Assembly: GCA_030390025.1 (NCBI GenBank)
Contig: CM059431.1
Location: forward strand, 137,952,001 to 138,016,000
Direction: 5' to 3'
Origin: Squalus acanthias
Lineage: Eukaryota
DNA length: 64,000 nucleotides
A program made the position numbers and the translations under genes. Numbering within the stretch: the first letter of the stretch is position 1; the number at the start of each line of letters is the position of its first letter. The notes under the pieces were generated by a model. That model was given only the letters and a program-made list of their open reading frames with translations, ran no database searches and was not told the DNA's origin. Below are positions 1,272-25,600 of this stretch, one piece after another.

Positions 1272-1634
1272 ACATAGGAGAAATAATAGGTAATTGGCTC
1301 CTCGAGCCTGTTGCGCCATTCAATGAGATAATGGCTGATCTGTAAGCTAACTCCATATACCCGAATTTACCCCACATAATATAAATCTGTCACTTTAAGA
1401 TTTAAAATTAACATTATCAATCCCTCCATGGCAGATAGGTCCTTCCTAAGGTGTGTTGCCCAGAACTGAACACAGTTCCCCAGGTGTGGTCGAACGAGGG
1501 TTTCGTTTGGATCTAGCATAACTTCTACCCCCTTGTATTCTTGTCTTTTAGAAAGAAAGGAGAGCATTTAATTAGCCTAATTGATTCGTACATGGACCGC
1601 GAATTCTCTTTGGACCTTCACTGCTTCTAGCTTT
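1272..1634 (-). mobile_element. CR1-type LINE fragment with internal deletions; apparent host of the satellite
   Basis: Reverse-oriented 3' tail at 1272-1380 (CTCGAGCCTG..GCCATTCAATGAGATAATGGCTGATCT) matches the tail at 61826-61930. ORF 1367-1567(-) reads EYKGVEVML...LVRPHLGNCVQFW. 1586-1633(-) translates KLEAVKVQREFAVHVR. Confidence 0.85.
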
Positions 1635-4600
1635 GGAACGTCAATGTTTCTAGCTTTGGACCTTCACTTTTTTAAGTTTGGACCTCCACTGTTTCTAGCT
1701 TTAGACCGTCACTGTTTCCAGCTTTGGACCTTCACTCTTTATAGCTTTGGACGTCTACTGTTTCTAGCTTTGGACCTTCACTGTTTCTAGCTTTGGACAT
1801 TTACTATTGCTGGTTTTGGAACTCCACTGTTTCTAGCTTTGGACCTCCAGTGTTTCTAGCTTTGGACGTACAGAGTTTCTAGATTTGGATATTCACTGTT
1901 TGTAACTTTGGACTTTCACTGTTTCGAGCTTTGGACCTCCACTGTTTCAAGATTTGGACCTCCACTGTTTCAAGCTTTGGACCTCCACTGTTTCTACCTT
2001 TGGACCTTCACTGTTTCTAGCTTTGGACCTTCACTGGTTCTAGATATGGAACTTCACTATTTCTAGCTTTGGATCTCCACTCTTTCTAGCTTTGTACCTT
2101 CACTGTTTCTAGCTTTGGCCCTTCACTCTCTCAAGCTGTGGTCCTCCACTGTTTCTAGCTCTGGAGCTCCACTCTTGCTGGCTTTGGAGCTCCACTCTTT
2201 CTAGCTTTGGACTTTCACTGTCTCTAGCTGTGGACCTCCACTGTTTCTAGCTTTCGACCTTCACTGTTTCTGGCTTTGAACCTTCACTGTTTCTAGCTTT
2301 GGACCAGAACTGCTTCTAGCTGTCGACCTTCACTGTTTCTAGCTTTGGACCTCCACTGTTTTTAGCTTTCGACCAAAACTCTTTCTAGCTTTGGACCTTA
2401 ACAGTTTCTAGATTTGTAGATTCACTATTTCTAACTTTGGACCTTCACTGTTTCTGGCTTTGGACCTTCACTGTTTCTAGCTTTGGACCTTCACTGTTTA
2501 TAGCTTTGGACGTAGAGTGTTTCTAGATTTGGACATTCACTGTTTCTAACGTTGGAACTTCACTGTTTCTGGCTTTGGACCATCACTGTTTCTAGCTTTG
2601 GAACTCCACTGTTTCTAGCTTTGGACCTCCACTGTTTCTAGCTTTGGACCTTCACTGTGTCTAGATTTGGACCTTCACAGTTTCTAGTTTTGGATCTCAA
2701 TTGTTTCTTACTTTGGACCTTCACTCTTTCTAGCTTTGGACCTTCAATATTTCTAGCTTTGGACCACGACTGTTTCTAGCTTTGGACCATCACACTTTCT
2801 AGCTTTGGAACTTCACTGTTTTTAGCTTTGGATCTTCACTGTTTTTAGCTTTGGACCTTCACCGTTTCTAGCTTTGGACCTTCACTGTTTCTAGCTTTGG
2901 ACCTCCACTGTTTCTAGCTTTGGACCTCCACTGTTTCTAGCTTTGGACCTCCACTGTTTCTAGCTTTGGACCAACACTGTTTCTAGCTTTGGACCTTCAC
3001 TGTTTCTGGCTTTGGACCTTCACTGTTTCTTACATTCGACCTTCACTGTTTCCAGCTTTGGATCTCCACTGTTACCAGCTTTGGACCTTCACTATTTCTA
3101 GCTTTGGACCTCCACTGTTTCTAGCTTTGGACCTTCACTCTTTCTAGTTTTGGAACTCCACAGTTTCCAACTCTGGACCTTCACTGTTTCTAGCTTTGGA
3201 CCTCCGCTATTTCTAGCTTTGCACCTTCACTGTTGCTAGCTTTGGACATCCACTGTTTCTAGCTTTGGTGCTCAGCTATTTCTAGCTTTGAATCTTCACT
3301 GTATCTAGCTTTGGACCACCACTGTATAGCTTTGGACCACCACTGTTTCTAGCTTTGGACCTTCACTGTTTTTGGCTTTGGACCTTCACTGTTTCTAACT
3401 TTCGACCTTCACTGTTTACAGATTTGGACCTCCACTGTTTCCAGCTTTAGACCTCCACTGTTTCTACCTTTGAACATTCACTGTTTCCAGCTTTGGACCT
3501 TCACTGTTGCTAGCTTTGGAACTCCATTGCTTCTAGCTTTGGACCGCTACTGTTTCAAGCTTTGGACCAACGCTGTTTCTAGCTTTGGACCTTCACTGTT
3601 TCTAGCTTTGGACCAACACTGTTTCTAGATTTGGAAGTTCACTATTTCTGGCTTTGGATCTCCACACTTTCTAGCTTTGGACCTCCACTGTTTCTTGCTT
3701 TGTACCTTCGCTATTTCGAGCTTTGGCCCTTCACTCTCTCTAGCTTTGGACATCCACTGTTTCTAGCTTTGGACCTCCACTGGTTCGAGCTTTGGACCTT
3801 CACTGTTTCTAGCTTTGGACATCCACTGTTTGTAGCATTGGACAAAAACTGTTTCTAACTTTGGACCTTCAACGTTTCTAGCTTTGGACCTCCACTGTTA
3901 CTAGCTTTGGACATCCACTGTTTCTAGCTTTGGACCTTCACTGTTTCTAGCTTTGGACATCCACTGTTTGTAGCATTGGACCTCCAATGTTTCTAGCTTT
4001 GGACCTTCACTCTTTCTAGCTTTGGAACTTCACTTTGTTTAGCTTTGGATCTTCACTGTTTTTAGCTTTGGACCTTCACCGTTTCTAGCTTTGGACGTCC
4101 ACTGTTTGTAGCTTTGGACCTTCATTGTTTCTAGCTTTGGACCTCCGCTATTTCTAGCTTTGGACCTTCACTGTTTCTAGCTTTGGACCTCCACTGTTTC
4201 CAGCTTTGGACCTCCACTGTTTCTAGCTTTGGACCAACACTGTTTCTAGCTTTGGACCTTCACTGTTTCTGGCTTTGAACCTTCACTGTTTCTTACATTC
4301 GACCTTCACAGTTTGCAGCTTTGGATCTCCACTGTTTCCAGCTTTGGACCTTCACTGTTTCTAGCTTAGGACCTCCATCATTTCTAGCTTTGAACATTCA
4401 CTGTTTCCAGCTTTGGACCTTCACTGTTTCTAGCTTTGGACATCCACTGTTTGTAGCATTGGACAAAAACTGTTTCTAACTTTGGACCTTCAACGTTTCT
4501 AGCTTTGGACCTCCATCATTTCTAGCTTTGAACATTCACTGTTTCCAGCTTTGGACCTTCACTGTTTCTAGCTTTGGACCTCCATTGGTTCTAGCTTTGG

Positions 4601-7600
4601 ACCTCTACTGTTTCAAGCTTTCTACCAACACTGTTTCTAGCTTTGGACCTTCACTATTTCCAGCTTTGGACCAACAGTGTTTCTAGCTTTGGAACTTCAC
4701 TGTTTCTAACTTTGGACCTCCACTGTTTCTAGATTGGGAACTTCACTATTTCTAGCTTCGGACCTCCACTGTTTCTAGCTTTGACCTTCACTGTGTATAG
4801 ATTTGGAACTTCACTATTTCTAGCTTTGGACCTCCACTGTTTCTAGATTGGGAACTTCACTATTTCTAGCTTTGGACCTCCACTGTTTCTAGCTTTGGAC
4901 GTCCACCATATCTAGCTTTGAACAATCACTGTTTCTAGCTTTGGACCTCCACTGTTTCTAGCTTTGGACCTCTACTGTTTCTAGCTTTGGACCAACACTG
5001 TTTCTAGCTTTGGTCCTTCACTGTTTCTAGCTTTGGACCTTCACTCTTTCTAACTTTGGACCTCCACTGTTTCTAGCTTTGGACCTCCACTGTTTCTAGC
5101 TTTGGACCTCCACTGTTTCTAGCTTTGGACCTTCACTGTTTCTAGCTTTGGACCACCATTGTTTCTAGCTTTGGAACTTCACTGTGTCTAGCTTTGGATC
5201 TCCACTGTTTCTAGCTTTAGACCTCCACTGTTTCTAGATTGGAAACTTCGCTATTTCTAGCTTTGGTCATCCACTGTTTCTAGCTTGACCTTCACTGTGT
5301 CTAGCTTTGGATCTTCACAGTTTCTAGATTTGGATCTCAATTTTTTCTTACTTTCGAGCTCCACTCTCTCTAGCTTTCGTCCTTCACTGTCTCTAGCTTT
5401 GGACCTTCACTTTATCTAGCTTTGGACCTCCACTGTTTATAGCTTTGGACCTCTACTGTTTGTAGCTTTGGACCTCCTCTGTTTCTAGCTTTGGACCTCC
5501 ACTCTTTCTAGCTTTGGACCTCCACTGTTTCTAGATTTGGACCACCACTGTTTCTAGCATTGGACCTCCACTGTTTCTAGCTTTGGACCTCCACTGTTTC
5601 TTAATTTGGAGCTTCACTGTTTCTAGCTTAGGATGTCCAGGCTTTCTAGCTTTGGACCTCCACTGTTCCAAGCGTTGGATCTCCACTCTTTCTAGCTTTG
5701 GAGCTCCACTCTTTCTAGCTTTGGACTTTCACTGTCTCTAGGCTTGGATCTTAATTGTTTCGTACTTTGAAACTTCACTGTTTCTAGCTTTGGATCTTCA
5801 CTGTTTCTAGCTTTGGACCTTTACTGTTTCTAGCTTTGGACCTCCACTGTCTCTAGCTTTGGACCTTCACTGTCTCTAGCTTTGCACCTTCAATGTATCT
5901 AGATTTGGACCTCCTCTGTTTCTAGCTTTGGACCTCTACTGTTTGTAGCTTTGGACCTCCACTGTTTCTAGCTTTGGACCTTCACTGTGTCTAGCTTTGG
6001 ACCTTCACTGTTTCTAGCTTTGGACCACCATTGTTTCCAGCTTTGGACCTTCACTGTGTCTAGCTTTGGATCTCCACTGTTTCTAGCTTTAGACCTCCAC
6101 TGTTTCTAGATTGGAAACTTCTCTATTTCTAGCTTTGGACATCCACTGTTTCTAGCTTTGACCTTCACTGTGTCTAGCTTTGGATCTTCACAGTTTCTAG
6201 ATTTGGACCTTCACTGTTTCTAGCTTTGGACCTTCACTGTGTCTAGCTTTGGATCTCCACTGTTTCTAGCTTTAGACCTCCACTGTTTCTAGATTGGAAA
6301 CTTCTCTATTTCTAGCTTTGGACATCCACTGTTTCTAGCTTTGACCTTCACTGTGTCTAGCTTTGGATCTTCACAGTTTCTAGATTTGGACCTTCACTGT
6401 TTCTAGCTTTGGACCTTCACTGTGTCTAGCTTTGGATCTCCACTGTTTCTAGCTTTAGACCTCCACTGTTTCTAGATTGGAAACTTCTCTATTTCTAGCT
6501 TTGGACATCCACTGTTTCTAGCTTTGACCTTCACTGTGTCTAGCTTTGGATCTTCACAGTTTCTAGATTTGGACCTTCACTGTTTCTAGCTTTGAACCTC
6601 CACCATTTCTAGCTTTAAACAATCACTGTTTCTAGCTTTGGACCTCCACTGTTTCCAGCTTTGGACCTCCACTGTTTCTAGCTTTGGACCAAAACTGTTT
6701 CTAGCTTTGCACCTTCACTGTTTCTAGCTTTGCACCTTCACTGTTGCTAACTTTGGACCTTCACTGTTTCCAGCTTTGGACCTATACTGTTTCTAGCTTT
6801 GGTGCTCCACTGTTTCTAGCTTTGGACCTTCACTGTTTCTAGCTTTGAACCATCACTATTTCTAGCTTGAAACTTTCACTGTTTCCTGCTATGGACCTTC
6901 ACTATTTCTAGCGTTGGACCCTTATTGCTTCTAGCTTTGGATCCTCTACAGTTTCTAGCTTTGGACACACACTGTTTCTAGCTTTGGACCTGCCTTGTTT
7001 CTAGCTTTGGATCTTCACTGTTTCAAGCTTTGGAGCTCCACTCTTTCTAGCTTTGGAGCTCCACTCTTTCTAGCTTTGGAGCTCCACTCTTTCTAGCTTT
7101 GGACTTTCACTGTCTCTAGGTTTGGATCTTAATTGTTTCGTACTTTGAAACTTCACTGTTTCTAGCTTTGGATCTTCATTGTTTCTAGCTTTGGACCTTT
7201 ACTGTTTCTAGCTTTGGACCTCCACTGTCTCTAGCTTTGGACCTTCACTGTCTCTAGCTTTGCACCTTCAATGTATCTTGATTTGGACCTCCTCTGTTTC
7301 TAGCTTTGGACCTCTACTGTTTGTAGCTTTGGACCTCCACTGTTTCTAGCTTTGGACCTTCACTGTGTCTAGCTTTGGACCTTCACTGTTTCTAGCTTTG
7401 GACCACCATTGTTTCCAGCTTTGGACCTTCACTGTGTCTAGCTTTGGATCTCCACTGTTTCTAGCTTTAGACCTCCACTGTTTCTAGATTGGAAACTTCT
7501 CTATTTCTAGCTTTGGACATCCACTGTTTCTAGCTTTGACCTTCACTGTGTCTAGCTTTGGATCTTCACAGTTTCTAGATTTGGACCTTCACTGTTTCTA

Positions 7601-10600
7601 GCTTTGGACCTTCACTGTGTCTAGCTTTGGATCTCCACTGTTTCAAGCTTTGGAGCTCCACTCTTTCTAGCTTTGGAGCTCCACTCTTTCTAGCTTTGGA
7701 CTTTCACTGTCTCTAGCTTTGGATCTTAATTGTTTCGTACTTTGAAACGTCACTGTTTGTAGCTTTGGATCTTCACTGTTTCTAGCTTTGGACCTCCACT
7801 GTTTCTAGCTTTGGACCTCCACTGTTTCTTAATTTGGAGCTTCACTGTTTCTAGCTTAGGATGTCCAGGCTTTCTAGCTTTGGACCTCCACTGTTTCAAG
7901 CGTTGGATCTCCACTCTTTCTAGCTTTGGAGCTCCACTCTTTCTAGCTTTGGACTTTCACTGTCTCTAGCTTTGGATCTTAATTGTTTCGTACTTTGAAA
8001 CTTCACTGTTTCTAGCTTTGGATCTTCACTGTTTCTAGCTTTGGACCTTCACTGTTTCTAGCTTTGGACCTCCACTGTCTCTAGCTTTGGACCTTCACCG
8101 TCTCTAGCTTTGCACCTTCAATGTATCTAGCTTTGGACCTCATCTGTTTCTAGCTTTGGACCTCTACTGTTTGTAGCTTTGGACCTCCACTGTTTCTAGC
8201 TTTGGACCTTCACTGTGTCTAGCTTTGGACCTTCACTGTTTCTAGCTTTGGACCACCATTGTTTCCAGCTTTGGACCTTCACTGTGTCTAGCTTTGGATC
8301 TCCACTGTTTCTAGCTTTAGACCTCCACTGTTTCTAGATTGGAAACTTCACTATTTCTAGCTTTGGACATCCACTGTTTCTAGCCTTGGACCTTCAGTGT
8401 GTCTAGCTTTGGATCTTCACAGTTTCTAGATTTGGACCTTCACTGTTTCTAGCTTTGAACCTCCACCATTTCTAGCTTTAAACAATCACTGTTTCTAGCT
8501 TTGGACCTCCACTGTTTCTAGCTTTGGACCTCCACTGTTTCTAGCTTTGGACCAAAACTGTTTCTAGCTTTGGACCTTCACTGTTTCTAGCTTTGCACCT
8601 TCACTGTTGCTAACTTTGGACCTTCACTGTTTCCAGCTTTGGACCTCCACTGTTTCTAGCTTTGGTGCTCCACTGTTTCTAGCTTTGGACCTTCACTGTT
8701 TCTAGCTTTGAACCATCACCATTTCTAGCTTGAAACTTTCACTGTTTCCTGCTATGGACCTTCACTATTTCTAGCGTTGGACCCTTATTGCTTCTAGCTT
8801 TGGATCCTCTACAGTTTCTAGCTTTGGACACACACTGTTTCTAGCTTTGGACCTCCCTTGTTTCTAGCTTTGGATCTTCACTGTTTCAAGCTTTGGAGCT
8901 CCACTCTTTCTAGCTTTGGAGCTCCACTCTTTCTAGCTTTGGACTTTCACTGTCTCTAGCTTTGGATCTTAATTGTTTCGTACTTTGAAACTTCACTGTT
9001 TCTAGCTTTGGATCTTCACTGTTTCTAGCTTTGGACCTTCACTGTTTCTAGCTTTGAACCTCCACCATTTCTAGCTTTAAACAATCACTGTTTCTAGCTT
9101 TGGACCTCCACTGTTTCTAGCTTTGGACCTCCACTGTTTCTAGCTTTGGACCAAAACTGTTTCTAGCTTTGGACCTTCACTGTTTCTAGCTTTGCACCTT
9201 CACTGTTTCTAACTTTGGACCTTCACTGTTTCCAGCTTTGGACCTCCACTGTTTCTAGCTTTGGATCTTCACTGTTTCTAGCTTTGGACCTTCACTGTTT
9301 CTAGCTTTGAACCATCACCATTTCTAGCTTGAAACTTTCACTGTTTCCTGCTATGGACCTTCACTATTTCTAGCGTTGGACCCTTATTGCTTCTAGCTTT
9401 GGATCCTCTACAGTTTCTAGCTTTGGACCTCCCTTGTTTCTAGCTTTGGATCTTCACTGTGTCTAGCTTTGGACCGCCACTCTTTCTAGATTGGGATCTT
9501 CACTATTTCTAGCTTCGGACCTCCACTGTTTCTAGCTTTGACCTTCACTGTGTCCAGATTTGGAACTTCACTATTTCTAGCTTTGGACCTCCACTGTTTC
9601 TAGATTGGGAACTTCACTATTTCTAGCTTTGGACCTCCACTGTTTCTAGATTGGTAACTTCACTATTTCTAGCTTCGGATCTCCACTGTTTCTAGATTTG
9701 GACCTCCACTGGTTCTAGATTGGGAACTTCACTATTTCTAGCTTTGAACAATCACTGTTTCTAGCTTTGGACCTCCACTGTTTCTAGCTTTGGACCTCAA
9801 CTGTTTCTAGCTTTGGACCAACACTGTTTCTAGCTTTGGACCTTCACTGATTCTAGCTTTGGACCTTCACTCTTTCTAACTTTGGACCTCCACTGTTTCT
9901 AGCTTTGGACCTCCACTGTTTCTAGCTTTGGACGTTCACTGCGTCTAGCTTTGGACCTCCACTGTTTCTAGGTTTGGACCTTCACTGTTTCTAGCTTTGG
10001 ACCACCATTGTTTCTAGCTTTGGACCTTCACTGTGTCTAGCTTTGGATCTCCACTGTTTCTAGCTTTAGACCTCCACTGTTTCTAGATTGGAAACTTCAC
10101 TATTTCTAGATTTGGACCTCCACTGTTTCTAGATTTGAAACTTAACAGTTCTAGCTTCGGATCTCCACTGTTTCTAGCTTTGACCTTCACTGTGTCTAGC
10201 TTTGGACCTTCACAGTTTCTAGATTTGGATCTCAATTTTTTCTTACTTTCGAGCTCCACTCTCTCTAGCTTTCGTCCTTTCCTGTCTCTAGCTCTGGACC
10301 TTCACTTTATCTAGCTTTGGACCTCCACTGTTTCTAGCTTTGGATCTCTACTGTTTGTAGCTTTGGACCTCCTCTGTTTCTAGCTTTGGACCTCCACTGT
10401 TTCTAGCTTTGGACCTCCACTGTTTCTAGATTTGGACCACCACTGTTTCTAGCTTTGGACCTCCACTGTTTCTAGCTTTGGACCTCCACTGTTTCTAGAT
10501 TTGGACGTTCACTGTTTCTAGCTTAGGATTTCCAGGCTTTCTAGCTTTGGACCTCCACTGTTTCAAGCTTTGGAGCTCCACTCTATCCAGCTTTGGACTT

Positions 10601-13600
10601 TCACTGTCTCTAGCTTTGGATCTTAATTGTTTCGTACTTTGAAACTTCACTGTTTCTAGCTTTGGATCTTCACTGTTTCTAGCTTTGGACCTTCACTGTT
10701 TCTAGCTTTGGACCTCCACTTTCTCTAGCTTTGGACCTTCACTGTCTCTAGCTTTGCACCTTCAATGTAGCTAGCTTTGGACCTCCGCTGTTTCTAGCTT
10801 TGGACCTCTACTGTTTGTAGCTTTGGACCTCCACTCTTTCAAGCTTTGGACCTTCACTGTTTCTAGCTTTGGTCCTCTACTGTTTGTAGCTTTGGACCTC
10901 CACTGTTTCTAGCTTTTGACCTCCACTGTTTCTAGATTTGGACGTCCACTGATTCTAACTTTGGACCTTCACTTTTTCTAGATTTGGAACTTCACTATTT
11001 CTAGCTTTGGCCCTTCACTCTCTCCAGCTTTGGACCTCCACTGTTTCCAGCTTAGGAGCTCCACTCTTTCTAGCTTTGGAGCTCCTCCCTTTCTAGCTTT
11101 GGACTTTCACTGTGTCTAGCTTTGGAACTTCACTGTTTCTGGCTTTCGACCATCACTGTTTCTAGCTTTCGACCTCCACTGCTTCTAGATTGGAAACTTC
11201 ACTATTTCTAGCTTTGGACCTCCACTCTTTCTAGATTGGGAACTTCACTATTTCTAGCTTCGGACCTCCACTGTTTCTAGCTTTGACCTTCAATGTGTCT
11301 AGATTTGGAACTTCACTATTTCTAGCTTTGGACCTCCACTGGTTCTAGATTGGGAACTTCACTATTTCTAGCTTTGGACCTCCACTGTTTCTAGATTGGG
11401 AACTTCACTATTTCTAGCTTCGGATCTCCACTGTTTCTAGCTTTGGACCTTCACTGTTTCTAGCTTTGGACGTCCAACATTTCTAGCTTTGAACAATCAC
11501 TGTGTCTAGCTTTGGACCTCCACTATTTCTAGCTTTGGACCTCTACTGTTTCTAGCTTTGGACCTTCTCTCTTTCTAGTTTCGGAACTCCACATTTTCAA
11601 CTCTGGACCTTGACTGTTTCTAGCTTTGGACCTCCGCTATTTCTAGCTTTGGACCTTCACTGATTCTAGCTTTGGACCTCCACTGTTTCTAGCTTTGGTG
11701 CTCAGCTATTTCTAGCTTTGGATCTTCAGTGTATCTAGCTTTGGACCACCATTGTTTCTAGCTTTGGACCTCCACTGTTTCTAGCTTTGGACCTTTACTG
11801 TTTCTTGCTTTGGACCACCACTCTTTCTAGCCTTGGACCTCCACTATTGCAAGCTTTGGAACTCCAATGTTTCATGCTTGGGACCTCCACTGTTTCTAGC
11901 TTTGGGTCACAACTGTTTCTAGCTTTGGACCATCGCTGTTTCTAGCTTTGGATCTCCACTGTTTCTAGCTTTGGACCTTCACTGTTTCTAGCTTTGGAAC
12001 GTCACTGTTTCTAGCTTTGGATCTTCACTGTCTCTAGTTTTGGAACGTCACTGTTTCTAGCTTTGGACCTTCACTGTGTCTAGCTTTGGATCTCCAATCT
12101 TTCTCGCTTTGGACCACCAGTGTTTCTAGATTTGGATCAGCACTGTTTCTAGCTTTGGAGCACCACTGTTTCTAGCTTTGGACCTTCACTGTTTCTAGCT
12201 TTGGAACTTCACAGTTTCTAGCTTTGGATCTCCACTATTTCTAGCTTTGGACCTTCACTGTTTCTACCTTTGGACCTCCACTGCTTCTAGCTTTGGACCT
12301 TCACTGTTTCTAGCTTTGGACCTTCACTGTTTCTAGCTTTGGACCTTCACTGTTTCTAGCTTTGGACCTTCACTCTTTCTAACTTTGGACCTCCACTGTT
12401 TCTAGCTTTGGACCTCCACTGTTTCTAGCTTTGGACGTTCACTGCGTCTAGCTTTGGACCTCCACTGTTTCTAGGTTTGGACCTTCACTGTTTCTAGCTT
12501 TGGAGCACCATTGTTTCTAGCTTTGGACCTTCACTGTGTCTAGCTTTGGATCTCCACTGTTTCTAGCTTTAGACCTCCACTGTTTCTAGATTGGAAACTT
12601 CACTATTTCTAGCTTTGGACCTCCACTGTTTCTAGATTTGAAACTTAACAGTTCTAGCTTCGGATCTCCACTGTTTCTAGCTTTGACCTTCACTGTGTGT
12701 AGCTTTGGACCTTCACAGTTTCTAGATTTGGATCTCAATTTTTTCTTACTTTCGAGCTCCACTCTCTCTAGCTTTCGTCCTTTACTGTCTCTAGCTCTGG
12801 ACCTTCACTTTATCTAGCTTTGGACCTCCACTGTTTCTAGCTTTGGATCTCTACTGTTTGTAGCTTTGGACCTCCTCTGTTTCTAGCTTTGGACCTCCAC
12901 TGTTTCTAGCTTTGGACCTCCACTGTTTCTAGATTTGGACCACTACTGTTTCTAGCTTTGGACCTCCACTGTTTCTAGCTTTGGACCTCCACTGTTTCTA
13001 GATTTGGACGTTCACTGTTTCTAGCTTAGGATTTCCAGGCTTTCTAGCTTTGGACCTCCACTGTTTCAAGCTTTGGAGCTCCACTCTTTCCAGCTTTGGA
13101 CTTTCACTGTCTCTAGCTTTGGATCTTAATTGTTTCTTACTTTGAAACTTCACTGTTTCTAGCTTTGGATCTTCACTGTTTCTAGCTTTGGACCTTCACT
13201 GTTTCTAGCTTTGGACCTCCACTTTCTCTAGCTTTGGACCTTCACTGTCTCTAGCTTTGCACCTTCAATGTAGCTAGCTTTGGACCTCCGCTGTTTCTAG
13301 CTTTGGACCTCTACTGTTTGTAGCTTTGGACCTCCACTCTTTCAAGCTTTGGACCTTCACTGTTTCTAGCTTTGGTCCTCTACTGTTTGTAGCTTTGGAC
13401 CTCCACTGTTTCTAGCTTTTGACCTCCACTGTTTCTAGATTTGGACGTCCACTGATTCTAACTTTGGACCTTCACTTTTTCTAGATTTGGAACTTCACTA
13501 TTTCTAGCTTTGGCCCTTCACTCTCTCCAGCTTTGGACCTCCACTGTTTCCAGCTTAGGAGCTCCACTCTTTCTAGCTTTGGAGCTCCTCCCTTTCTAGC

Positions 13601-16600
13601 TTTGGACTTTCACTGTGTCTAGCTTTGGAACTTCACTGTTTCTGGCTTTCGACCATCACTGTTTCTAGCTTTCGACCTCCACTGCTTCTAGATTGGAAAC
13701 TTCACTATTTCTAGCTTTGGACCTCCACTCTTTCTAGATTGGGAACTTCACTATTTCTAGCTTCGGACCTCCACTGTTTCTAGCTTTGACCTTCAATGTG
13801 TCTAGATTTGGAACTTCACTATTTCTAGCTTTGGACCTCCACTGGTTCTAGATTGGGAACTTCACTATTTCTAGCTTTGGACCTCCACTGTTTCTAGATT
13901 GGGAACTTCACTATTTCTAGCTTCGGATCTCCACTGTTTCTAGCTTTGGACCTTCACTGTTTCTAGCTTTGGACGTCCAACATTTCTAGCTTTGAACAAT
14001 CACTGTTTCTAGCTTTGGACCTCCACTATTTCTAGCTTTGGACCTCTACTGTTTCTAGCTTTGGACCTTCTCTCTTTCTAGTTTCGGAACTCCACATTTT
14101 CAACTCTGGACCTTGACTGTTTCTAGCTTTGGACCTCCGCTATTTCTAGCTTTGGACCTTCACTGATTCTAGCTTTGGAACTCCACTGTTTCTAGCTTTG
14201 GTGCTCAGCTATTTCTAGCTTTGGATCTTCAGTGTATCTAGCTTTGGACCACCATTGTTTCTAGCTTTGGACCTCCACTGTTTCTAGCTTTGGACCTTTA
14301 CTGTTTCTTGCTTTGGACCACCACTCTTTCTAGCCTTGGACCTCCACTATTGCAAGCTTTGGAACTCCAATGTTTCATGCTTGGGACCTCCACTGTTTCT
14401 AGCTTTGGGTCACAACTGTTTCTAGCTTTGGACCATCGCTGTTTCTAGCTTTGGATCTCCACTGTTTCTAGCTTTGGACCTTCACTGTTTCTAGCTTTGG
14501 AACGTCACTGTTTCTAGCTTTGGATCTTCACTGTCTCTAGTTTTGGAACGTCACTGTTTCTAGCTTTGGACCTTCACTGTGTCTAGCTTTGGATCTCCAA
14601 TCTTTCTCGCTTTGGACCACCAGTGTTTCTAGATTTGGATCAGCACTGTTTCTAGCTTTGGAGCACCACTGTTTCTAGCTTTGGACCTTCACTGTTTCTA
14701 GCTTTGGAACGTCACAGTTTCTAGCTTTGGATCTCCACTATTTCTAGCTTTGGACCTTCACTGTTTCTACCTTTGGACCTCCACTGCTTCTAGCTTTGGA
14801 CCTTCACTGTTTCTAGCTTTGGACCTCCACTGTTTCTAGCTTTGGAACTTCACTGTTTCCAGCTTTGGACCTTCACTGTTTCTAGCTTTGGACCTTCACT
14901 GTTTCTAGCTTTGGACCTGCACTGTTTCTAGATTTGGGTCTTCACTGTTTCTAGCTTTGGACATCCACTGTTTCTAGCATTGGATCTCCACTCTTTCTAG
15001 CTTTGGACCTCCACTGTTTCTAGCTTTGGACCTCCACTGTTTTTGATTGGGATCTGCACTATTTCTAGCTTCGGACCTCCACTGTTTCTACCTTTGGACC
15101 TCCACTGTTTCTAGATTTGGACCTCCACTGTTTCTAGCTTTGGACCAACACTGTTTCTAGCTTTGGACCTTCACTGTTTCTAGCTTTGGACCTTCACTCT
15201 TTCTAACTTTGGACCTCCACTGTTTCTAGCTTTGGACCTCCACTGTTTCTAGCTTTGGACCTCAACTGTTTCTAGCTTTGGACCAACACTGTTTCTAGCT
15301 TTGGACCTTCACTGTTTCTAGCTTTGGACCTTCACTCTTTCTAACTTTGGACCTCCACTGTTTCTAGCTTTGGACCTCCACTGTTTCTAGCTTTGGACGT
15401 TCACTGCGTCTAGCTTTGGACCTCCACTGTTTCTAGGTTTGGACCTTCACTGTTTCTAGCTTTGGACCACCATTGTTTCTAGCTTTGGACCTTCACTGTG
15501 TCTAGCTTTGGATCTCCACTGTTTCTAGCTTTAGACCTCCACTGTTTCTAGATTGGAAACTTCACTATTTCTAGCTTTGGACCTCCACTGTTTCTAGATT
15601 TGAAACTTAACAGTTCTAGCTTCGGATCTCCACTGTTTCTAGCTTTGACCTTCACTGTGTCTAGCTTTGGACCTTCACAGTTTCTAGATTTGGATCTCAA
15701 TTTTTTCTTACTTTCGAGCTCCACTCTCTCTAGCTTTCGTCCTTCACTGTCTCTAGCTCTGGACCTTCACTTTATCTGGCTTTGGACCTCCACTGTTTCT
15801 AGCTTTGGATCTCTACAGTTTGTAGCTTTGGACCTCCTCTGTTTCTAGCTTTGGACCTCCACTGTTTCTAGCTTTGGACCTCCACTGTTTCTAGATTTGG
15901 ACCACCACTGTTTCTAGCTTTGGACCTCCACTGTTTCTAGCTTTGGACCTCCACTGTTTCTAGATTTGGACGTTCACTGTTTCTAGCTTAGGATTTCCAG
16001 GCTTTCTAGCTTTGGACCTCCACTGTTTCAAGCTTTGGAGCTCCACTCTTTCCAGCTTTGGACTTTCACTGTCTCTAGCTTTGGATCTTAATTGTTTCGT
16101 ACTTTGAAACTTCACTGTTTCTAGCTTTGGATCTTCACTGTTTCTAGCTTTGGACCTTCACTGTCTCTAGCTTTGCACCTTCAATGTAGCTAGCTTTGGA
16201 CCTCCGCTGTTTCTAGCTTTGGACCTCTACTGTTTGTAGCTTTGGACCTCCACTCTTTCAAGCTTTGGACCTTCACTGTTTCTAGCTTTGGTCCTCTACT
16301 GTTTGTAGCTTTGGACCTCCACTGTTTCTAGCTTTTGACCTCCACTGTTTCTAGATTTGGACGTCCACTGATTCTAACTTTGGACCTTCACTTTTTCTAG
16401 ATTTGGAACTTCACTATTTCTAGCTTTGGCCCTTCACTCTCTCCAGCTTTGGTCCTCCACTGTTTCCAGCTTAGGAGCTCCACTCTTTCTAGCTTTGGAG
16501 CTCCTCCCTTTCTAGCTTTGGACTTTCACTGTGTCTAGCTTTGGAACTTCACTGTTTCTGGCTTTCGACCATCACTGTTTCTAGCTTTCGACCTCCACTG

Positions 16601-19600
16601 CTTCTAGATTGGAAACTTCACTATTTCTAGCTTTGGACCTCCACTCTTTCTAGATTTGAAACTTAACAGTTCTAGCTTCGGATCTCCACTGTTTCTAGCT
16701 TTGACCTTCACTGTGTCTAGCTTTGGACCTTCACAGTTTCTAGATTTGGATCTCAATTTTTTCTTACTTTCGAGCTCCACTCTCTCTAGCTTTCGTCCTT
16801 CACTGTCTCTAGCTCTGGACCTTCACTTTATCTGGCTTTGGACCTCCACTGTTTCTAGCTTTGGATCTCTACAGTTTGTAGCTTTGGACCTCCTCTGTTT
16901 CTAGCTTTGGACCTCCACTGTTTCTAGCTTTGGACCTCCACTGTTTCTAGATTTGGACCACCACTGTTTCTAGCTTTGGACCTCCACTGTTTCTAGCTTT
17001 GGACCTCCACTGTTTCTAGATTTGGACGTTCACTGTTTCTAGCTTAGGATTTCCAGGCTTTCTAGCTTTGGACCTCCACTGTTTCAAGCTTTGGAGCTCC
17101 ACTCTTTCCAGCTTTGGACTTTCACTGTCTCTAGCTTTGGATCTTAATTGTTTCGTACTTTGAAACTTCACTGTTTCTAGCTTTGGATCTTCACTGTTTC
17201 TAGCTTTGGACCTTCACTGTCTCTAGCTTTGCACCTTCAATGTAGCTAGCTTTGGACCTCCGCTGTTTCTAGCTTTGGACCTCTACTGTTTGTAGCTTTG
17301 GACCTCCACTCTTTCAAGCTTTGGACCTTCACTGTTTCTAGCTTTGGTCCTCTACTGTTTGTAGCTTTGGACCTCCACTGTTTCTAGCTTTTGACCTCCA
17401 CTGTTTCTAGATTTGGACGTCCACTGATTCTAACTTTGGACCTTCACTTTTTCTAGATTTGGAACTTCACTATTTCTAGCTTTGGCCCTTCACTCTCTCC
17501 AGCTTTGGACCTCCACTGTTTCCAGCTTAGGAGCTCCACTCTTTCTAGCTTTGGAGCTCCTCCCTTTCTAGCTTTGGACTTTCACTGTGTCTAGCTTTGG
17601 AACTTCACTGTTTCTGGCTTTCGACCATCACTGTTTCTAGCTTTCGACCTCCACTGCTTCTAGATTGGAAACTTCACTATTTCTAGCTTTGGACCTCCAC
17701 TCTTTCTAGATTGGGAACTTCACTATTTCTAGCTTCGGACCTCCACTGTTTCTAGCTTTGACCTTCAATGTGTCTAGATTTGGAACTTCACTATTTCTAG
17801 CTTTGGACCTCCACTGGTTCTAGATTGGGAACTTCACTATTTCTAGCTTTGGACCTCCACTGTTTCTAGATTGGGAACTTCACTATTTCTAGCTTCGGAT
17901 CTCCACTGTTTCTAGCTTTGGACCTTCACTGTTTCTAGCTTTGGACGTCCAACATTTCTAGCTTTGAACAATCAATGTTTCTAGCTTTGGACCTCCACTA
18001 TTTCTAGCTTTGGACCTCTACTGTTTCTAGCTTTGGACCTTCTCTCTTTCTAGTTTCGGAACTCCACATTTTCAACTCTGGACCTTGACTGTTTCTAGCT
18101 TTGGACCTCCGCTATTTCTAGCTTTGGACCTTCACTGTTTCTAGCTTTGGTGCTCAGCTATTTCTAGCTTTGGATCTTCACTGTATCTAGCTTTGGACCA
18201 CCATTGTTTCTAGCTTTGGACCTCCACTGTTTCTAGCTTTGGACCTTTACTGTTTCTTGCTTTGGACCACCACTCTTTCTAGCCTTGGACCTCAACTATT
18301 GCTAGCTTTGGAACTCCAATGTTTCATGCTTGGGACCTCCACTGTTTCTAGCTTTGGGTCACAACTGTTTCTAGCTTTGGACCATCGCTGTTTCTAGCTT
18401 TGGATCTCCACTGTTTCTAGCTTTGGACCTTCACTGTTTCTAGCTTTGGAACGTCACTGTTTCTAGCTTTGGATCTTCACTGTCTCTAGTTTTGGAACGT
18501 CACTGTTTCTAGCTTTGGACCTTCACTGTGTCTAGCTTTGCATTTCCAATCTTTCTCGCTTTGGACCACCAGTGTTTCTAGATTTGGATCAGCTCTGTTT
18601 CTAGCTTTGGAGCACCACTGTTTCTAGCTTTGGACCTTCACTGTTTCTAGCTTTGGAACTTCACAGTTTCTAGCTTTGGATCTCCACTATTTCTAGCTTT
18701 GGAACTTCACTGTTTCTACCTTTGGACCTCCACTGCTTCTAGCTTTGGACCTTCACTGTTTCTAGCTTTGGACCTCCACTGTTTCTAGCTTTGGAACTTC
18801 ACTGTTTCCAGCTTTGGACCTTCACTGTTTCTAGCTTTGGACCTTCACTGTTTCTAGCTTTGGACCTGCACTGTTTCTAGATTTGGGTCTTCACTGTTTC
18901 TAGCTTTGGACCTCCACTGTTTCTAGCTTTGGATCTCCACTCTTTCTAGCTTTGGACCTCCACTGTTTCTAGCTTTGGACCTCCACTGTTTTTGATTGGG
19001 ATCTGCACTATTTCTAGCTTCGGACCTCCACTGTTTCTACCTTTGGACCTCCACTGTTTCTAGATTTGGACCTCCACTGTTTCTACCTTTGGACCTCCAC
19101 TGTTTCTACCTTTGGACCTGCACTCTTTCTAGCTTTGGATCTTCACTGTTTCTAGCTTTGGACCTTCACTGTCTCTAGCTTTGCACCTTCAATGTAGCTA
19201 GCTTTGGACCTCCGCTGTTTCTAGCTTTGGACCTCTACTGTTTGTAGCTTTGGACCTCCACTCTTTCAAGCTTTGGACCTTCACTGTTTCTAGCTTTGGT
19301 CCTCTACTGTTTGTAGCTTTGGACCTCCACTGTTTCTAGCTTTTGACCTCCACTGTTTCTAGATTTGGACGTCCACTGATTCTAACTTTGGACCTTCACT
19401 TTTTCTAGATTTGGAACTTCACTATTTCTAGCTTTGGCCCTTCACTCTCTCCAGCTTTGGACCTCCACTGTTTCCAGCTTAGGAGCTCCACTCTTTCTAG
19501 CTTTGGAGCTCCTCCCTTTCTAGCTTTGGACTTTCACTGTGTCTAGCTTTGGAACTTCACTGTTTCTGGCTTTCGACCATCACTGTTTCTAGCTTTCGAC

Positions 19601-22600
19601 CTCCACTGCTTCTAGATTGGAAACTTCACTATTTCTAGCTTTGGACCTCCACTCTTTCTAGATTGGGAACTTCACTATTTCTAGCTTCGGACCTCCACTG
19701 TTTCTAGCTTTGACCTTCAATGTGTCTAGATTTGGAACTTCACTATTTCTAGCTTTGGACCTCCACTGGTTCTAGATTGGGAACTTCACTACTTCTAGCT
19801 TTGGACCTCCACTGTTTCTAGATTGGGAACTTCACTATTTCTAGCTTCGGATCTCCACTGTTTCTAGCTTTGGACCTTCACTGTTTCTAGCTTTGGACGT
19901 CCAACATTTCTAGCTTTGAACAATCAATGTTTCTACCTTTGGACCTCCACTGCTTCTAGCTTTGGACCTCCACTGTTTCTAGCTTTGGAACTTCACTGTT
20001 TCCAGCTTTGGACCTTCACTGTTTCTAGCTTTGGACCTGCACTGTTTCTAGATTTGGGTCTTCACTGTTTCTAGCTTTGGACCTCCACTGTTTCTAGCTT
20101 TGGATCTCCACTCTTTCTAGCTTTGGACCTCCACTGTTTTTGATTGGGATCTGCACTATTTCTAGCTTCGGACCTCCACTGTTTCTACCTTTGGACCTCC
20201 ACTGTTTCTAGATTTGGACCTCCACTGTTTCTACCTTTGGACCTCCACTGTTTCTACCTTTGGACCTGCACTCTTTCTAGCTTTGGATCTTCACTGTTTC
20301 TAGCTTTGGACCTTCACTGTCTCTAGCTTTGCACCTTCAATGTAGCTAGCTTTGGACCTCCGCTGTTTCTAGCTTTGGACCTCTACTGTTTGTAGCTTTG
20401 GACCTCCACTCTTTCAAGCTTTGGACCTTCACTGTTTCTAGCTTTGGATCTCCACTGTTTCTAGCTTTGGACCTCACTGTTTCTAGCTTTGGACCTCACT
20501 GTTTCTAGCTTTGGACTTCACTGTTCTAGCTTTGGACCTTCACTGTTTCTAGATTGGACCTTCACTGTTTCTAGCTTTGGCCTTCACTGTTCTAGCTTTG
20601 GACCTCCACTGTTTCCTAGCTTTGGACCTCCACTGTTTCTAGCTTTGGACTCACTCTTTCTAGCTTTGGACCTTCACTGTTTCTAGCTTTGGAACTTCAC
20701 TGTTTCTAGCTTTGGACCTTCACTGTTTCTAGCTTTGGACCTCCACTGTTCTAGATTGGAACTTCACTATTTCTAGCTTCGGACCTCCGCTGTTTCTAGC
20801 TTTGGAACTTCACTGTTTCTAGCTTTGGACCTCACTGTTTCTAGCTTTGGACTTCACTGTTTCTAGCTTTGGACCTTCACTGTTTCTAGCTTTGGACCTT
20901 CACTGTTTCTAGCTTTGGAACTTCACTATTTCTAGCTTTGGACCTCCACTGTTTCTAGATTGGGAACTTCACTATTTCTAGCTTCGGATCTCCACTGTTT
21001 CTAGCTTTGGACCTTCACTGTTTCTAGCTTTGGACGTCCAACATTTCTAGCTTTGAACAATCAATGTTTCTAGCTTTGGACCTCCACTATTTCTAGCTTT
21101 GGACCTCTACTGTTTCTAGCTTTGGACCTTCTCTCTTTCTAGTTTCGGAACTCCACATTTTCAACTCTGGACCTTGACTGTTTCTAGCTTTGGACCTCCG
21201 CTATTTCTAGCTTTGGACCTTCACTGATTCTAGCTTTGGACCTCCACTGTTTCTAGCTTTGGTGCTCAGCTATTTCTAGCTTTGGATCTTCACTGTATCT
21301 AGCTTTGGACATCCACTGTTTCTAGCTTTGGACCTCCACTGTTTCTAGCTTTGGACCTCCACTGTTTCTAGCTTTGGACCTTCACTGTTTCTAGCTTTGG
21401 ACATCCACTGTTTCTAGCTTTGGAACTTCACTGTTTCCAGCTTTGGACCTTCACTGTTTCTAGCTTTGGACCTTCACTGTTTCTAGCTTTGGACCTGCAC
21501 TGTTTCTAGATTTGGGTCTTCACTGTTTCTAGCTTTGGACCTCCACTGTTTCTAGCTTTGGATCTCCACTCTTTCTAGCTTTGGACCTCCGCTATTTCTA
21601 GCTTTGGACCTTCACTGTCGCTAGATTTTGACCTCCACTGTTTCTAGCTTTGGACCGCCACTGTTTTTGATTGGGATCTGCACTATTTCTAGCTTCGGAC
21701 ATCCACTGTTTCTAGCTTTGGACCTCCACTGTTTCTAGATATGTACCTTCACTGTTTCTAGCTTTGGAAATTCACTGTTTCTAGCTTTGGAGCTGCACTC
21801 TTTCTAGCTTTGGACCTTCACTGTTTCTATCTTTGAATCTCCAATGTGTCTAAATTTGGACCTTCACTGTTTCTAGCTTTGGACCCTCACTGTTTCTAGC
21901 TTTGGACTTTCGCTGTTTCTAGCTTTGGACCTTCACTCTTTCTAGCTTTGGACCTTCACTGTTTCTAGCTTTGGATCAACACTGTTTCTCTCTTTGGACC
22001 ACCACTGTTTCTAGCTTTGGACCTTCACTGTCTCTAGCTTTGGAGCTTCACTGTGTCTAGCTTTGGATCTCTAATCTTCCTCGATTTGGACCACCAGTGT
22101 TTCTAGCTTTGGAGCACCACTGTTTCTAGCTTTGGACCTTCACTGTTTCTAGCTTTGGACCTTCACAGTTTCTAGCTTTGGATCTCCACTGTTTCTAGCT
22201 TTGGAACTTCACTGTTTCTAGCTTTGGAACTTCACTGCTTCTAGCTTTGGATCTTCACTGTTTCTCGCTTTGGACCTTCACTGTTTCTAGCTTTGGACCT
22301 CCACTGTTTCTAGCTTTGGACCTTCACTGTTTCTAGCTTTGGACCTCCACTGTTTCTAGCTTTCGACCATCACTGTTTCTAGCTTTGGACCTCCACTGTT
22401 TCTAGCTTTGGAACTTCACTGTTTCCAGCTTTGGACCTTCACTGTTTCTAGATTTGGACCTTCACTGTTTCTAGCTTTGGACCTGCACTGTTTCTAGCTT
22501 TGGATCTCCACTCTTTCTAGCTTTGGACCTCCGCTATTTCTAGCTTTGGAACTTCACTGTCTCTAGATTTTGACCTCCACTGTTTCTAGCTTTGGACCTC

Positions 22601-25600
22601 CACTGTTTTTGATTGGGATCTGCACTATTTCTAGCTTCGGACCTCCGCTGTTTCTAGCTTTGGACCTCCACTGTTTCTAGATTTGGACCTTCACTCTTTC
22701 TAGCTTTGGAAATTCACGGTTTCTAGCTTTGGAGCTGCACTCTTTCTAGCTTTGGACCTTCACTGTTTCTATCTTTGGATCTCCAATGTGTCTAACTTTG
22801 GACCTTCACTGTTTCTAGCTTTGGACCCTCACTGTTTCTAGCTTTGGACTTTCACTGTTTCCAGCTTTGGACCTTCACTGTTACTAGCTTTGGACCTTCA
22901 CTGTTTCTAGCTTTGGATCTCCACTGTTTCTATCTTTGGACCACCACTGTTTCTAGCTTTGGACCTTCACTGTGTCTAGCTTTGGAGCTTCACTGTCTCT
23001 AGCTTTGGACCACCACCGCTTCTGGTTTTGGACCTTCACTGTTTCTAGCTTTGGACCTTCACTGTTTCTAGCTTTGGAACTTCACTGTTTCTAGCTTTGG
23101 ATCTTCACTGTTTCTAGTTTTGGACCTCCACTGTTTCTAGCTTAGGACCTTCATTGTTTCGAGCTTTGGAGCTCCAATGTTTCTAGCTTTGGTCCGTCAC
23201 TGTTTCTAGCTTTGGAACTTCACTGTTTCTAGCTTTGGATCTTCACTGTTTCTAGTTTTGGCCCTCCACAGTTTCCAACTTTGGACCTTCACTGTTTCTA
23301 GCTTTGGTCCTCCGCTATTTCTAGCTTTGGACCTTCACTGTTTCTAGATTTTGACCTATACGGTTTCTAGCTTTGGAACTCCACTGTTTCTAGCTTTTTA
23401 CCTACACTATTTCTAGCTTTGGACTTTCTCTGCTTCTAGCTTTGGACCTTCACTGCTGCTAGCTTTGGACTTTCTCTGTTTCTAGCTTTGGACCTTCTCT
23501 GCTTCTAGCTTTGGACCTACACTGTTTCTAGCTTTGGACTTTCTCTGTTTCTTGCTTTGGACCTTCACTGTTTCTAGCTTTGGACCTCCACTGTTTGTCG
23601 CTTTGGACCTTCACTGCTTCTAGCTTTGGAAGTTTATTGTTTCTAGCTTTGGACCACCACTGTTTCTTGCTTTGGACCTCCACTGTTTCTAGCTTTGGAA
23701 CTCAACTGTTTCTAGCTTTGGACCTTCTCTGTTTCTAGCTTTGGATCTCCACTGTTTCTAGCTTTGGACCTTCACTGTTTCTAGCTTTGTAACGTCACTG
23801 TTTCCAGCTTTGGATCTTCACTGTCTCTAGCTTTGGAACGTCACTATTTCTAGCTTTGGACCCCCACTGTTTCTAGTTTTGGACCTTCACTGTTTCTAGC
23901 TTTGGACCTCCACTGTTTCTAGCTTAGGACCTTCATTGTTTCGAGCTTTGGAGCTCCAATGTTTCTAGCTTTGGTCCGTCACTGTTTCTAGCTTTGGAAC
24001 TTCACTGTTTCTAGCTTTGGATCTTCACTGTTTCTAGTTTTGGCCCTCCACAGTTTCCAACTTTGGACCTTCACTGTTACTAGCTTTGGACCTCCGCTAT
24101 TTCTAGCTTTGGACCTTCACTGTTTCTAGATTTTGACCTATACGGTTTCTAGCTTTGGAACTCTACTGTTTCTAGCTTTTTACCTACACTATTTCTAGCT
24201 TTGGACCTTCTCTGTTTCTAGCTTTGGACCTTCACTGCTGCTAGCTTTGGACCTACACTGTTTCTAGCTTTGGACCTTCTCTGTTTCTAGCTTTGGACCT
24301 TCACTGTTTCTAGCTTTGGACCTCCACTGTTTCTCGCTTTGGACATTCACTGTTTCTAGCTTTGGACCTTTATTGTTTCTAGCTTTGGACCACCACTGTT
24401 TCTTGCTTTGGACCTCCACTGTTTCTAGCTTTGGATCTCAACTGTTTCTAGCTTTGGACCTTCTCTGTTTCTAGCTTTGGATCTCCACTGTTTCTAGCTT
24501 TGGAACTTCACTGTTTCTAGCTTTGTAACGTCACTGTTTCCAGCTTTGGATCTTCACTGTCTCTAGCTTTGGAACGTCACTATTTCTAGCTTTGGACCTC
24601 CACTGTTTCTAGCTTTGGAACTTCACTGTTTCTAGCTTTGGACCTCCATTGTTTCTAGCTTTGGACATCCACTGTTTCTAGCTTTGGAACTTCACTGTTT
24701 CCAGCTTTGGATCTTCACTGTATCTAGCTTTGGACATCCACTATTTCTAGCTTTGGACCCCCACTGTTTCTAGTTTTGGACCTTCACTGTTTCTAGCTTT
24801 GGACCTCCACTGTTTCTAGCTTAGGACCTTCATTGTTTCGAGCTTTGGAGCTCCAATGTTTCTAGCTTTGGTCCGTCACTGTTTCTAGCTTTGGAACTTC
24901 ACTGTTTCTAGCTTTGGATCTTCACTGTTTCTAGCTTTGGCCCTCCACAGTTTCCAACTTTGGACCTTCACTGTTACTAGCTTTGGACCTCCGCTATTTC
25001 TAGCTTTGGACCTTCACTGTTTCTAGATTTTGACCTATACGGTTTCTAGCTTTGGAACTCTACTGTTTCTAGCTTTTTACCTACACTATTTCTAGCTTTG
25101 GACCTTCTCTGTTTCTAGCTTTGGACCTTCACTGCTGCTAGCTTTGGACCTACACTGTTTCTAGCTTTGGACCTTCTCTGTTTCTAGCTTTGGACCTTCA
25201 CTGTTTCTAGCTTTGGACCTCCACTGTTTCTCGCTTTGGACATTCACTGTTTCTAGCTTTGGACCTTTATTGTTTCTAGCTTTGGACCACCACTGTTTCT
25301 TGCTTTGGACCTCCACTGTTTCTAGCTTTGGATCTCAACTGTTTCTAGCTTTGGACCTTCTCTGTTTCTAGCTTTGGATCTCCACTGTTTCTAGCTTTGG
25401 AACTTCACTGTTTCTAGCTTTGTAACGTCACTGTTTCCAGCTTTGGATCTTCACTGTCTCTAGCTTTGGAACGTCACTATTTCTAGCTTTGGACCTCCAC
25501 TGTTTCTAGCTTTGGAACTTCACTGTTTCTAGCTTTGGACCTCCATTGTTTCTAGCTTTGGACATCCACTGTTTCTAGCTTTGGAACTTCACTGTTTCCA

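What the first reader, a model, noticed from the sequence alone, without database searches (positions are those of the whole stretch)
1440..1660. The 23-bp satellite monomer is a piece of CR1 LINE ORF2, and the array starts in register with its parent LINE
Seen: the minus strand of 1586-1633, which spans the LINE/array junction, reads KLEAVKVQREFAVHVR without a break. Other CR1 copies in the window have the same motif after the RT domain: LKRVQEQRDLG (~415-448), SGHVGIQRELGALVH (~61003-61047) and LGRTEDQSDLGVHVH (57.2 kb). A monomer reads KLETV(E/K)VQ on the minus strand, and CTTT sits at 1608 and 1631. Inference: a slippage duplication of a 23-bp ORF2 segment, probably at CTTT microhomology, was amplified about 2,100-fold in place. 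TE-derived satellites are known in general, but a preserved birth junction on an array of at least 48 kb is unusual.
Basis: partly seen in the sequence, partly recalled or inferred. Interest (0 to 1): 0.8.

Follow-up and report, generated by a model that had tools for sequence, protein, structure and literature searches.

The report
Giant satellite grown inside CR1 fragment
About 2,100 head-to-tail copies of a 23-base unit that matches a piece of a jumping gene (CR1) fill 48 kb of a likely shark genome; one end runs straight into the decayed parent element and the other likely does too, so the block likely grew in place, a known origin of repeat DNA seen here at unusual size.

Summary
Observation confirmed. 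The array (1608-50147, 2,113 units, one 200-N gap) abuts a decayed minus-strand CR1 fragment (1272-1607) in reading register. The array consensus in that register reads KLETVEV and fits a profile of 61 CR1 protein segments (shuffle P 5e-4) better than the junction unit does.

New here: the far end stops in the same phase, and its 30-nt flank resembles the CR1 sequence expected just upstream of the unit (P 0.002-0.025 against four proxy copies). The array therefore likely sits inside its parent, bracketed on both sides.

Corrections: the parent is a 5'-truncated, internally deleted CR1 derivative whose large deletion also occurs in relatives. The CTTT microhomology argument is circular. The satellite, including a seven-substitution haplotype, is shared with at least one other organism, so it is old. 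The parent consensus could not be obtained, and with no genome held a single birthplace is unproven.

TE-derived tandem repeats inside their parent element are well known. The scan's notes list four other LINE-born arrays on other DNA of this genome (unchecked). Verdict: new, unusually large and clean member of a known kind; interest 0.42.

The parts
1272..1420 (-). 3' tail of the CR1 derivative (end of ORF2 and 3' UTR), with an 18-nt deletion at about 1368/1369
   Evidence: Aligns with the 3' ends of five other CR1 copies in the window; deep cover by CR1 contigs of relatives
1421..1607 (-). Decayed CR1 ORF2 post-RT segment (..REFAVHVR / ..MLSFLSKRQEYKGVEVML..LVRPHLGNCVQFW..KDLSAMEG); 36-nt deletion at 1586/1587; joined to the 3' tail across a deletion of about 310 nt at about 1420
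   Evidence: deletion size read off against the copy at 61240-61552; 6 of 32 listed contig pieces of relatives bridge the large deletion without gaps
1608..50147 (-). Tandem array of 2,113 units of 23 bp, all in one orientation; consensus unit = CR1 codons L-E-T-V-E/K-V-Q plus 2 nt; non-coding (stops recur every 69 nt on both strands)
1608..5535 (-). Junction-side 171 units with no recent duplicate; the most diverged part of the array (9.1-9.7% from consensus in the first 50-140 units against 7.9% overall)
36016..36215 (.). Assembly gap (200 N) inside the array; true array length and continuity across it are not shown
50148..50177 (-). Likely 5' remnant of the same CR1 copy: about 30 nt resembling the sequence just upstream of the unit in other CR1 copies; similarity stops beyond it
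   Evidence: Anchored alignment to four window CR1 copies: P(sum) 0.002-0.007 and P(max) 0.003-0.025 over five scoring schemes; best at anchor shift 0 of 21 shifts

Best explanation
A 23-base stretch of a decayed, internally deleted CR1 copy was likely duplicated head to tail and then likely expanded in place, by repeated block duplications, into the array of 2,113 units that now separates the element's 3' part from a likely 30-base remnant of its 5' part. Steps: (1) a short non-autonomous CR1 derivative inserted here, 5'-truncated about 30 nt upstream of the future unit (element shown; truncation inferred). (2) A single 23-nt duplication arose, probably by slippage at a short AAG-type overlap during replication or reverse transcription (inferred; overlap not shown). 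(3) The array grew by unequal exchange or copy-back of blocks of 25-116 units at lags of 39-388 units (blocks shown; mechanism inferred). (4) Both ends stayed fixed while the interior turned over, and the consensus kept the ancestral codons better than the unit at the junction (shown by profile score). It is non-coding; I see no sign of function, and neutral growth is the default reading.
For: Left junction in reading register with CR1 ORF2; homologues are APE+RT ORF2 proteins, and the closest named ones come from sharks and rays. Consensus unit fits the CR1 profile at the position fixed in advance by the junction: 8.7 bits, P 5e-4; best of 46 phase/strand readings, next best -3.7; above 31% of true family segments; the junction unit scores -1.3. 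The far end stops at base 22 of 23 of a unit, the same phase as the near end. Its flank aligns to upstream CR1 sequence at the predicted anchor better than to further units (P 0.06). In organism A, depth at 1590-1607 is 7x (X2) and 12x (X3) that at 1572-1589, which implies many copies in which this CR1 motif runs on into the unit at 80% or more identity (my inference from the depth step). 78% of units lie in blocks with a partner of 97% or more identity; the first 171 units do not. Edge divergence (about 9%) is of the same order as half the 10-15% difference between this element and its deleted relatives.
Against: The parent subfamily itself was not retrieved, so the decisive one-unit-in-the-parent test is indirect. 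The far-flank match is short, needs gaps, rests on other subfamilies as proxies (2 of 4 significant on their own), and was tested after I had seen a local alignment. The depth step is absent in runs X6 and X7. No target-site duplication was found. A 200-N gap lies between the two ends. The satellite is 43-245 times deeper than the junction-type sequence in relatives (the tool warns that this is no copy number), which allows many other arrays. The large deletion is shared by other copies, so the first duplication may predate this insertion.
Confidence: 0.7

Rival explanations
1. The first duplication happened in another copy or in the source of the deleted CR1 derivative, which already carried a short run of units when it moved here by retrotransposition or segmental duplication; only the large expansion happened at this site.
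For: The 310-nt and 18-nt deletions are shared with contigs of relatives that differ by 10-15%, so the derivative was multi-copy. Two X2 contigs (summed depth 155) join 1545 to 1605 with at least 30 letters on each side, which fits either one unit plus a 4-nt overlap or a tandem run (table 5). The same route is described for Ogre-borne arrays (PMC7004042, abstract and outline seen).
Against: None of the 32 listed contig pieces shows a deleted-type copy running into tandem units (11,845 pieces not shown). Only one contig (X2, depth 24) links the CR1 body to two tandem units, which looks like a single locus.
Confidence: 0.17
2. The satellite was born from the same CR1 segment at another locus, and a piece of it was later integrated into this CR1 copy through its own homologous 23-mer (gene conversion or circle integration), which would also leave both ends in register.
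For: The satellite is abundant in relatives and shares derived haplotypes with them. Earlier notes on this genome describe CR1-derived satellites that are abundant elsewhere (unchecked).
Against: The units next to the junction are the most diverged and have no recent duplicates, about as old as the element itself. A 23-bp target is short for homologous integration (general knowledge, recalled).
Confidence: 0.1
3. An unrelated satellite landed next to a CR1 fragment, and the reading register is a coincidence or an assembly join.
For: The junction unit alone scores poorly on the profile (-1.3 bits); no raw reads of the window's own organism were laid (best share 0.15).
Against: Consensus fit P 5e-4 to 9e-4; same phase at both ends; far-flank match; a contig of organism A links the CR1 body to tandem units.
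Confidence: 0.03

Closest known systems
TE-derived minisatellites inside their parent elements, human genome (Ahmed and Liang 2012, PMC3389668; parts 1-3 of 4 of the text read; supplements not read)
   Same: A short internal piece of a retroelement is repeated in place; most such repeats are single-locus (5,747 of 5,932 clusters) and grow by local duplication; only 6% show the flanking repeats or incomplete end units that the slippage models predict.
   Different: Alu-derived cases average about 2.3-2.4 units; this array has 2,113 units and at least 48 kb, comes from CR1 ORF2, and shows nested block duplications typical of a satellite.
Satellites from LINE ORF2 pieces: chicken HinfI (SCR1) from CR1, PROsat and Pvc 20 from LINE-1, chicken Cen repeats from CR1-C (seen only as passages and table rows in reviews PMC9659126 and PMC6947457)
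   Same: Satellite sequence traced to a LINE, including CR1 ORF2.
   Different: In the passages seen, the LINE piece is part of, or similar to a region of, a longer repeat, and no parent attached at both array ends is described. Here the whole 23-bp unit is LINE coding sequence.
Ogre-derived satellites of Lathyrus sativus (Vondrak et al., PMC7004042; abstract and outline only)
   Same: Arrays that start inside a retrotransposon and occasionally expand to great length, with the element still flanking them.
   Different: There the mobile LTR element already carries the tandem array; here a one-copy coding segment of a non-LTR element seems to be the seed (not excluded that the deleted derivative carried a short run).
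Haber and Louis model of minisatellite initiation at 5-10-bp flanking repeats (as summarised in PMC6947457 and PMC3389668)
   Same: A unit-length duplication by slippage or unequal exchange is the likely first step.
   Different: No 5-10-bp flanking repeat is seen here; at most a 3-4-nt overlap, and that is not shown.

Membership tests
CR1-clade LINE ORF2 remnant (parent element) | Protein similarity to APE+RT ORF2 proteins in the region after the RT domain | tested here: met
   151 hits at E<=0.001; 3 of 6 hits scanned carry RVT_1 upstream, one also the endonuclease; closest named relatives from sharks and rays
CR1-clade LINE ORF2 remnant (parent element) | CR1-type 3' UTR ending in short repeats | tested here: met
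CR1-clade LINE ORF2 remnant (parent element) | Assignment to a named subfamily consensus | not testable with these tools
   No TE library is held; the subfamily's words were not found in protein, metagenome or genome collections
TE-derived tandem repeat expanded in its parent | Unit homologous to a single-copy segment of the element | tested here: met
   Profile fit P 5e-4 to 9e-4; depth step in 2 of 4 runs; indirect, since the parent consensus is missing
TE-derived tandem repeat expanded in its parent | Element sequence continues in register at the 3' side of the array | tested here: met
TE-derived tandem repeat expanded in its parent | Element sequence continues in register at the 5' side of the array | tested here: met
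   Same phase and anchored match P 0.002-0.025; moderate strength, 30 nt, proxies only
TE-derived tandem repeat expanded in its parent | This locus is the sole or oldest array of the family | not testable with these tools
   No genome held; no look-alike in earlier notes, which is weak
Slippage at flanking short direct repeats (Haber-Louis type) | 5-10-bp direct repeat flanking the unit in the parent | tested here: inconclusive
   Far flank gives A.G (2 of 3) against the unit's end; one joint fits a 4-nt overlap but also a tandem run; no 5-10-bp repeat seen
Satellite with regular higher-order repeat | One fixed multi-unit period along the array | tested here: not met
   Lags differ by region (109, 46, 187/380, 66, 44/178 and others); irregular block duplications only
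Centromeric satellite | CENP-A occupancy or presence at primary constrictions | not testable with these tools
   No chromatin or FISH data

The most novel reading that the evidence does not exclude
This shark lineage repeatedly turns 23-54-bp pieces inside individual LINE copies into 10-60-kb arrays where they lie, and slow sequence change has kept both birth junctions readable across species. This array would then be the founder of a satellite family shared by several species, and one of a set of natural replicates in which the first duplication, the growth steps and their timing can be read directly. The recurrence rests on unchecked notes of the scan; the founder status is untested.
Probability: 0.3. 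Interest if true: 0.65.

Novelty: new member of a known kind. Interest (0 to 1): 0.42.

Why it matters
How a long satellite starts is hard to observe because the first duplication is usually erased; in the human survey only 6% of TE-derived repeats fit a known initiation model (PMC3389668). Here the seed, its phase and probably both flanks are still readable around an array of at least 48 kb, and relatives carry the same satellite. Orthologous loci could therefore show the unexpanded or partly expanded state and date the growth. It also means that a short satellite unit of this genome can be traced to seven codons of a LINE. It changes no principle: TE-derived satellites are well documented.

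Tried and rejected
Whole-genome mapping of the unit: impossible, no genome held. Parent subfamily as protein: 4 candidates and none scoring; no candidate; an alignment search gave 2,425 hits, of which 120 were listed, best 6 of 9 residues identical to the unit peptide, none of the parent type. Parent subfamily as DNA: 0 matches in metagenome and genome contigs; unit pattern 0 matches in viral contigs; 52 metagenome loci, best 18 of 26 nt, no real match. Runs of the window's own organism: none found, best share of words 0.15; no RNA holder listed, which says nothing about expression. Only 4 of the 10 listed runs were laid, and only on 1140-1655, so the far junction was not examined in relatives. 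Direct DNA match of the unit to the other CR1 copies of the window: no better than background (17 of 23 at unrelated places); they are other subfamilies. Far flank as one more decayed unit: P 0.06, weaker than the CR1 reading. Target-site duplication: none convincing (best 7 of 8 nt, off position). A collapsed-locus alignment with cheap gap extension gave scattered, unusable blocks. Fixed higher-order repeat: rejected. Coding role: rejected, stops every 69 nt. The unit in print: 0 papers hold any of four 16-mers of it; searches on shark or elasmobranch satellites and CR1 listed no paper on it, and passages of PMC11406177 show a different 46-bp Y satellite. Supplementary repeat libraries were not read and could hold it.

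Full report
1. The observation. The window holds one tandem array at 1608-50147, period 23, 2,113 copies. My own segmentation gave the same count, 541 distinct unit sequences, and two main variants that differ at position 11 (T 52%, C 41%). There is a 200-N gap at 36016-36215, and a search for a 9-nt core word found no inverted unit. The minus strand of 1586-1633 reads KLEAVKVQREFAVHVR and continues, after two stops, as MLSFLSKRQEYKGVEVMLDPNETLVRPHLGNCVQFWATHLRKDLSAMEG.

2. What the flank is. Read with X at the two stops, 1421-1633 finds 151 proteins at E<=0.001. Of six hits scanned, three carry a reverse transcriptase domain upstream of the match and one also the endonuclease. The closest named relatives come from sharks and rays, so the genome is likely a shark's (inference). 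The label CR1 rests on these motifs and on recall; no TE library was available. The element is not an intact LINE. It has a 36-nt deletion at 1586/1587, a deletion of about 310 nt at about 1420 (read off against the copy at 61240-61552) and an 18-nt deletion near 1368; its 3' end is at 1272. Of 32 contig pieces listed from four runs of other organisms, 6 bridge the large deletion without gaps and differ by 10-15%; none bridges the 36-nt deletion, and three stop at it (11,845 pieces not shown). So the parent is a short deleted CR1 derivative that existed in several copies, and the 36-nt deletion may be private to this copy.

3. Is the unit a piece of ORF2? I could not get the parent subfamily, so I tested it indirectly. 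From 266 fetched proteins, 61 unique 12-residue segments precede Q[RK]DLG[VI]. On their profile, the C11 consensus unit in the register fixed by the junction (KLETVEV) scores 8.7 bits. Shuffle P is 4.9e-4; about 1e-4 of 30,718 non-array positions reach it; it is the best of 46 phase and strand readings (next -3.7); and it lies above 31% of the true segments. Without the first residue, which comes from the preceding unit, P is 8.9e-4; the four codons furthest from the anchor alone give P 0.011. The T11 variant scores 3.9 and the junction unit -1.3, so the array consensus keeps the ancestral codons better than the unit at the junction, and C11 is likely ancestral. Caveat: the proteins were found with queries that included the junction, though most matches start after residue 9. 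Second line: in organism A the summed depth at 1590-1607 is 7 and 12 times that at 1572-1589. Contigs there can hardly extend left across the 36-nt deletion, so many copies must run from this CR1 motif into the unit at 80% or more identity (inference). Runs X6 and X7 do not show the step.

4. The other end. The array stops after base 22 of a 23-nt unit, that is in the same phase in which it begins; about 2 of 23 phases would look like this by chance. If the array grew inside the element, the next bases should be the CR1 sequence upstream of the unit. An alignment anchored at that point against the four other CR1 copies of the window gave P(sum) 0.0017 against 600 shuffles and against 600 random window pieces. 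Over five scoring schemes P(sum) was 0.002-0.007 and P(max) 0.007-0.025, and the summed score peaked at shift 0 of 21 anchor shifts, with neighbouring shifts not far below. Two of the four proxies were significant on their own. Reading the flank as one more decayed unit fits less well (P 0.06). The match is about 30 nt (50148-50177), needs gaps, and was tested after I had seen a local alignment, so I rate it as moderate. No target-site duplication was found.

5. Microhomology. CTTT at 1608 and 1631 is the start of units 1 and 2 and would be there after any duplication, so it proves nothing. The real test is the parent's bases before the unit. The far flank matches 2 of the 3 bases of an AAG overlap. 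A joint from 1545 to 1605 with at least 30 letters on each side (two contigs, depth 155) fits one unit plus a 4-nt overlap, but also a tandem run. This stays open.

6. Growth and age. 78% of units lie in blocks of 15 or more units with a partner of at least 97% identity; the longest is 116 units at lag 109, and lags differ by region, so there is no single higher-order repeat. The first 171 units have no such partner, and the first 50-140 are the most diverged (9.1-9.7% from the nearer main variant, against 7.9% overall); the last 30 also lack a partner but are not unusually diverged (7.5% for the last 63). A unit with five changes plus two changes in the preceding unit occurs three times in the window and, letter for letter, in a contig of organism B; organism A has the same five-change unit. 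The satellite and some of its internal variants therefore predate the split from these organisms, assuming they are not the window's own species; their share of words is only 0.05-0.15. One X2 contig (depth 24) links the CR1 body, ending at 1589, to 1625-1655, which needs two tandem units; this fits a shared junction in organism A but is a single contig with unknown letters between. Satellite depth in the four runs is 43-245 times the depth at 1590-1607; the tool warns that this is no copy number, so I cannot say whether relatives have one array or many.

7. Mechanism. Best reading (0.70): insertion of a 5'-truncated deleted CR1 copy, one 23-nt duplication, then growth in place by block duplications with fixed ends. 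The element, the register and the blocks are shown; the truncation, the first duplication and the exchange mechanism are inferred. Rivals: the short tandem run was already in the source copy (0.17); a satellite born elsewhere was integrated through the homologous 23-mer (0.10); coincidence or misjoin (0.03). The array cannot code: stops recur every 69 nt on both strands.

8. What is known. TE-derived tandem repeats inside their elements are common: 7,276, or 23% of human minisatellites, mostly single-locus, about 2.3-2.4 units for Alu, 6% explained by slippage models (PMC3389668, parts 1-3 of 4 read). Satellites from CR1 and from LINE-1 ORF2 are listed in two reviews (PMC9659126, PMC6947457; passages). 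Long arrays growing inside retrotransposons are described in Lathyrus (PMC7004042; abstract and outline). I found this unit in no paper (also listings and passages of PMC11406177); supplements were not read. The scan's own notes list LINE-born arrays of 28, 49, 51 and 54 bp elsewhere in this genome (unchecked), and no look-alike of this one.

9. Verdict. It is a new member of a known kind, notable for its size and preservation. Uniqueness of the birth site and the microhomology are unproven. Interest 0.42.

Noticed in passing
window 51716-52650 (+): Galactosyltransferase (PF01762) gene broken into two frames near 52200-52300, with a stop near 52600; likely a pseudogene.
   Followed up: partly
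window 56560-59600 (-): Decayed, nearly full-length CR1 ORF2 of another subfamily, RT domain confirmed at 57132-57860.
   Followed up: partly
window 60816-62758: Two CR1 copies of related subfamilies lie tail to tail, forming a 1.9-kb imperfect inverted repeat (69% identity).
   Followed up: no
window 50924-51666, 54634-55298, 55747-56404, 59844-60609: Four related non-coding elements of 650-770 bp (67-79% alike, both orientations), some with internal inverted symmetry and AT-rich cores; likely MITE-like.
   Followed up: no
window 1272-1607 and runs X2, X3, X6, X7: A short CR1 derivative defined by shared deletions of about 310 and 18 nt occurs at low depth in relatives; a small non-autonomous family or an old segmental duplication.
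   Followed up: partly
window 1140-1270: The flank beyond the element's 3' end is present in several copies in organism A, one with only 3 substitutions and 3 gaps in 120 nt; possible orthologue and anchor for comparative work.
   Followed up: partly
P0183, P0266: Proteins filed under Proteus mirabilis are shark-type CR1 ORF2 pieces (78-79% identical to a Chiloscyllium protein); likely host contamination in public records.
   Followed up: no
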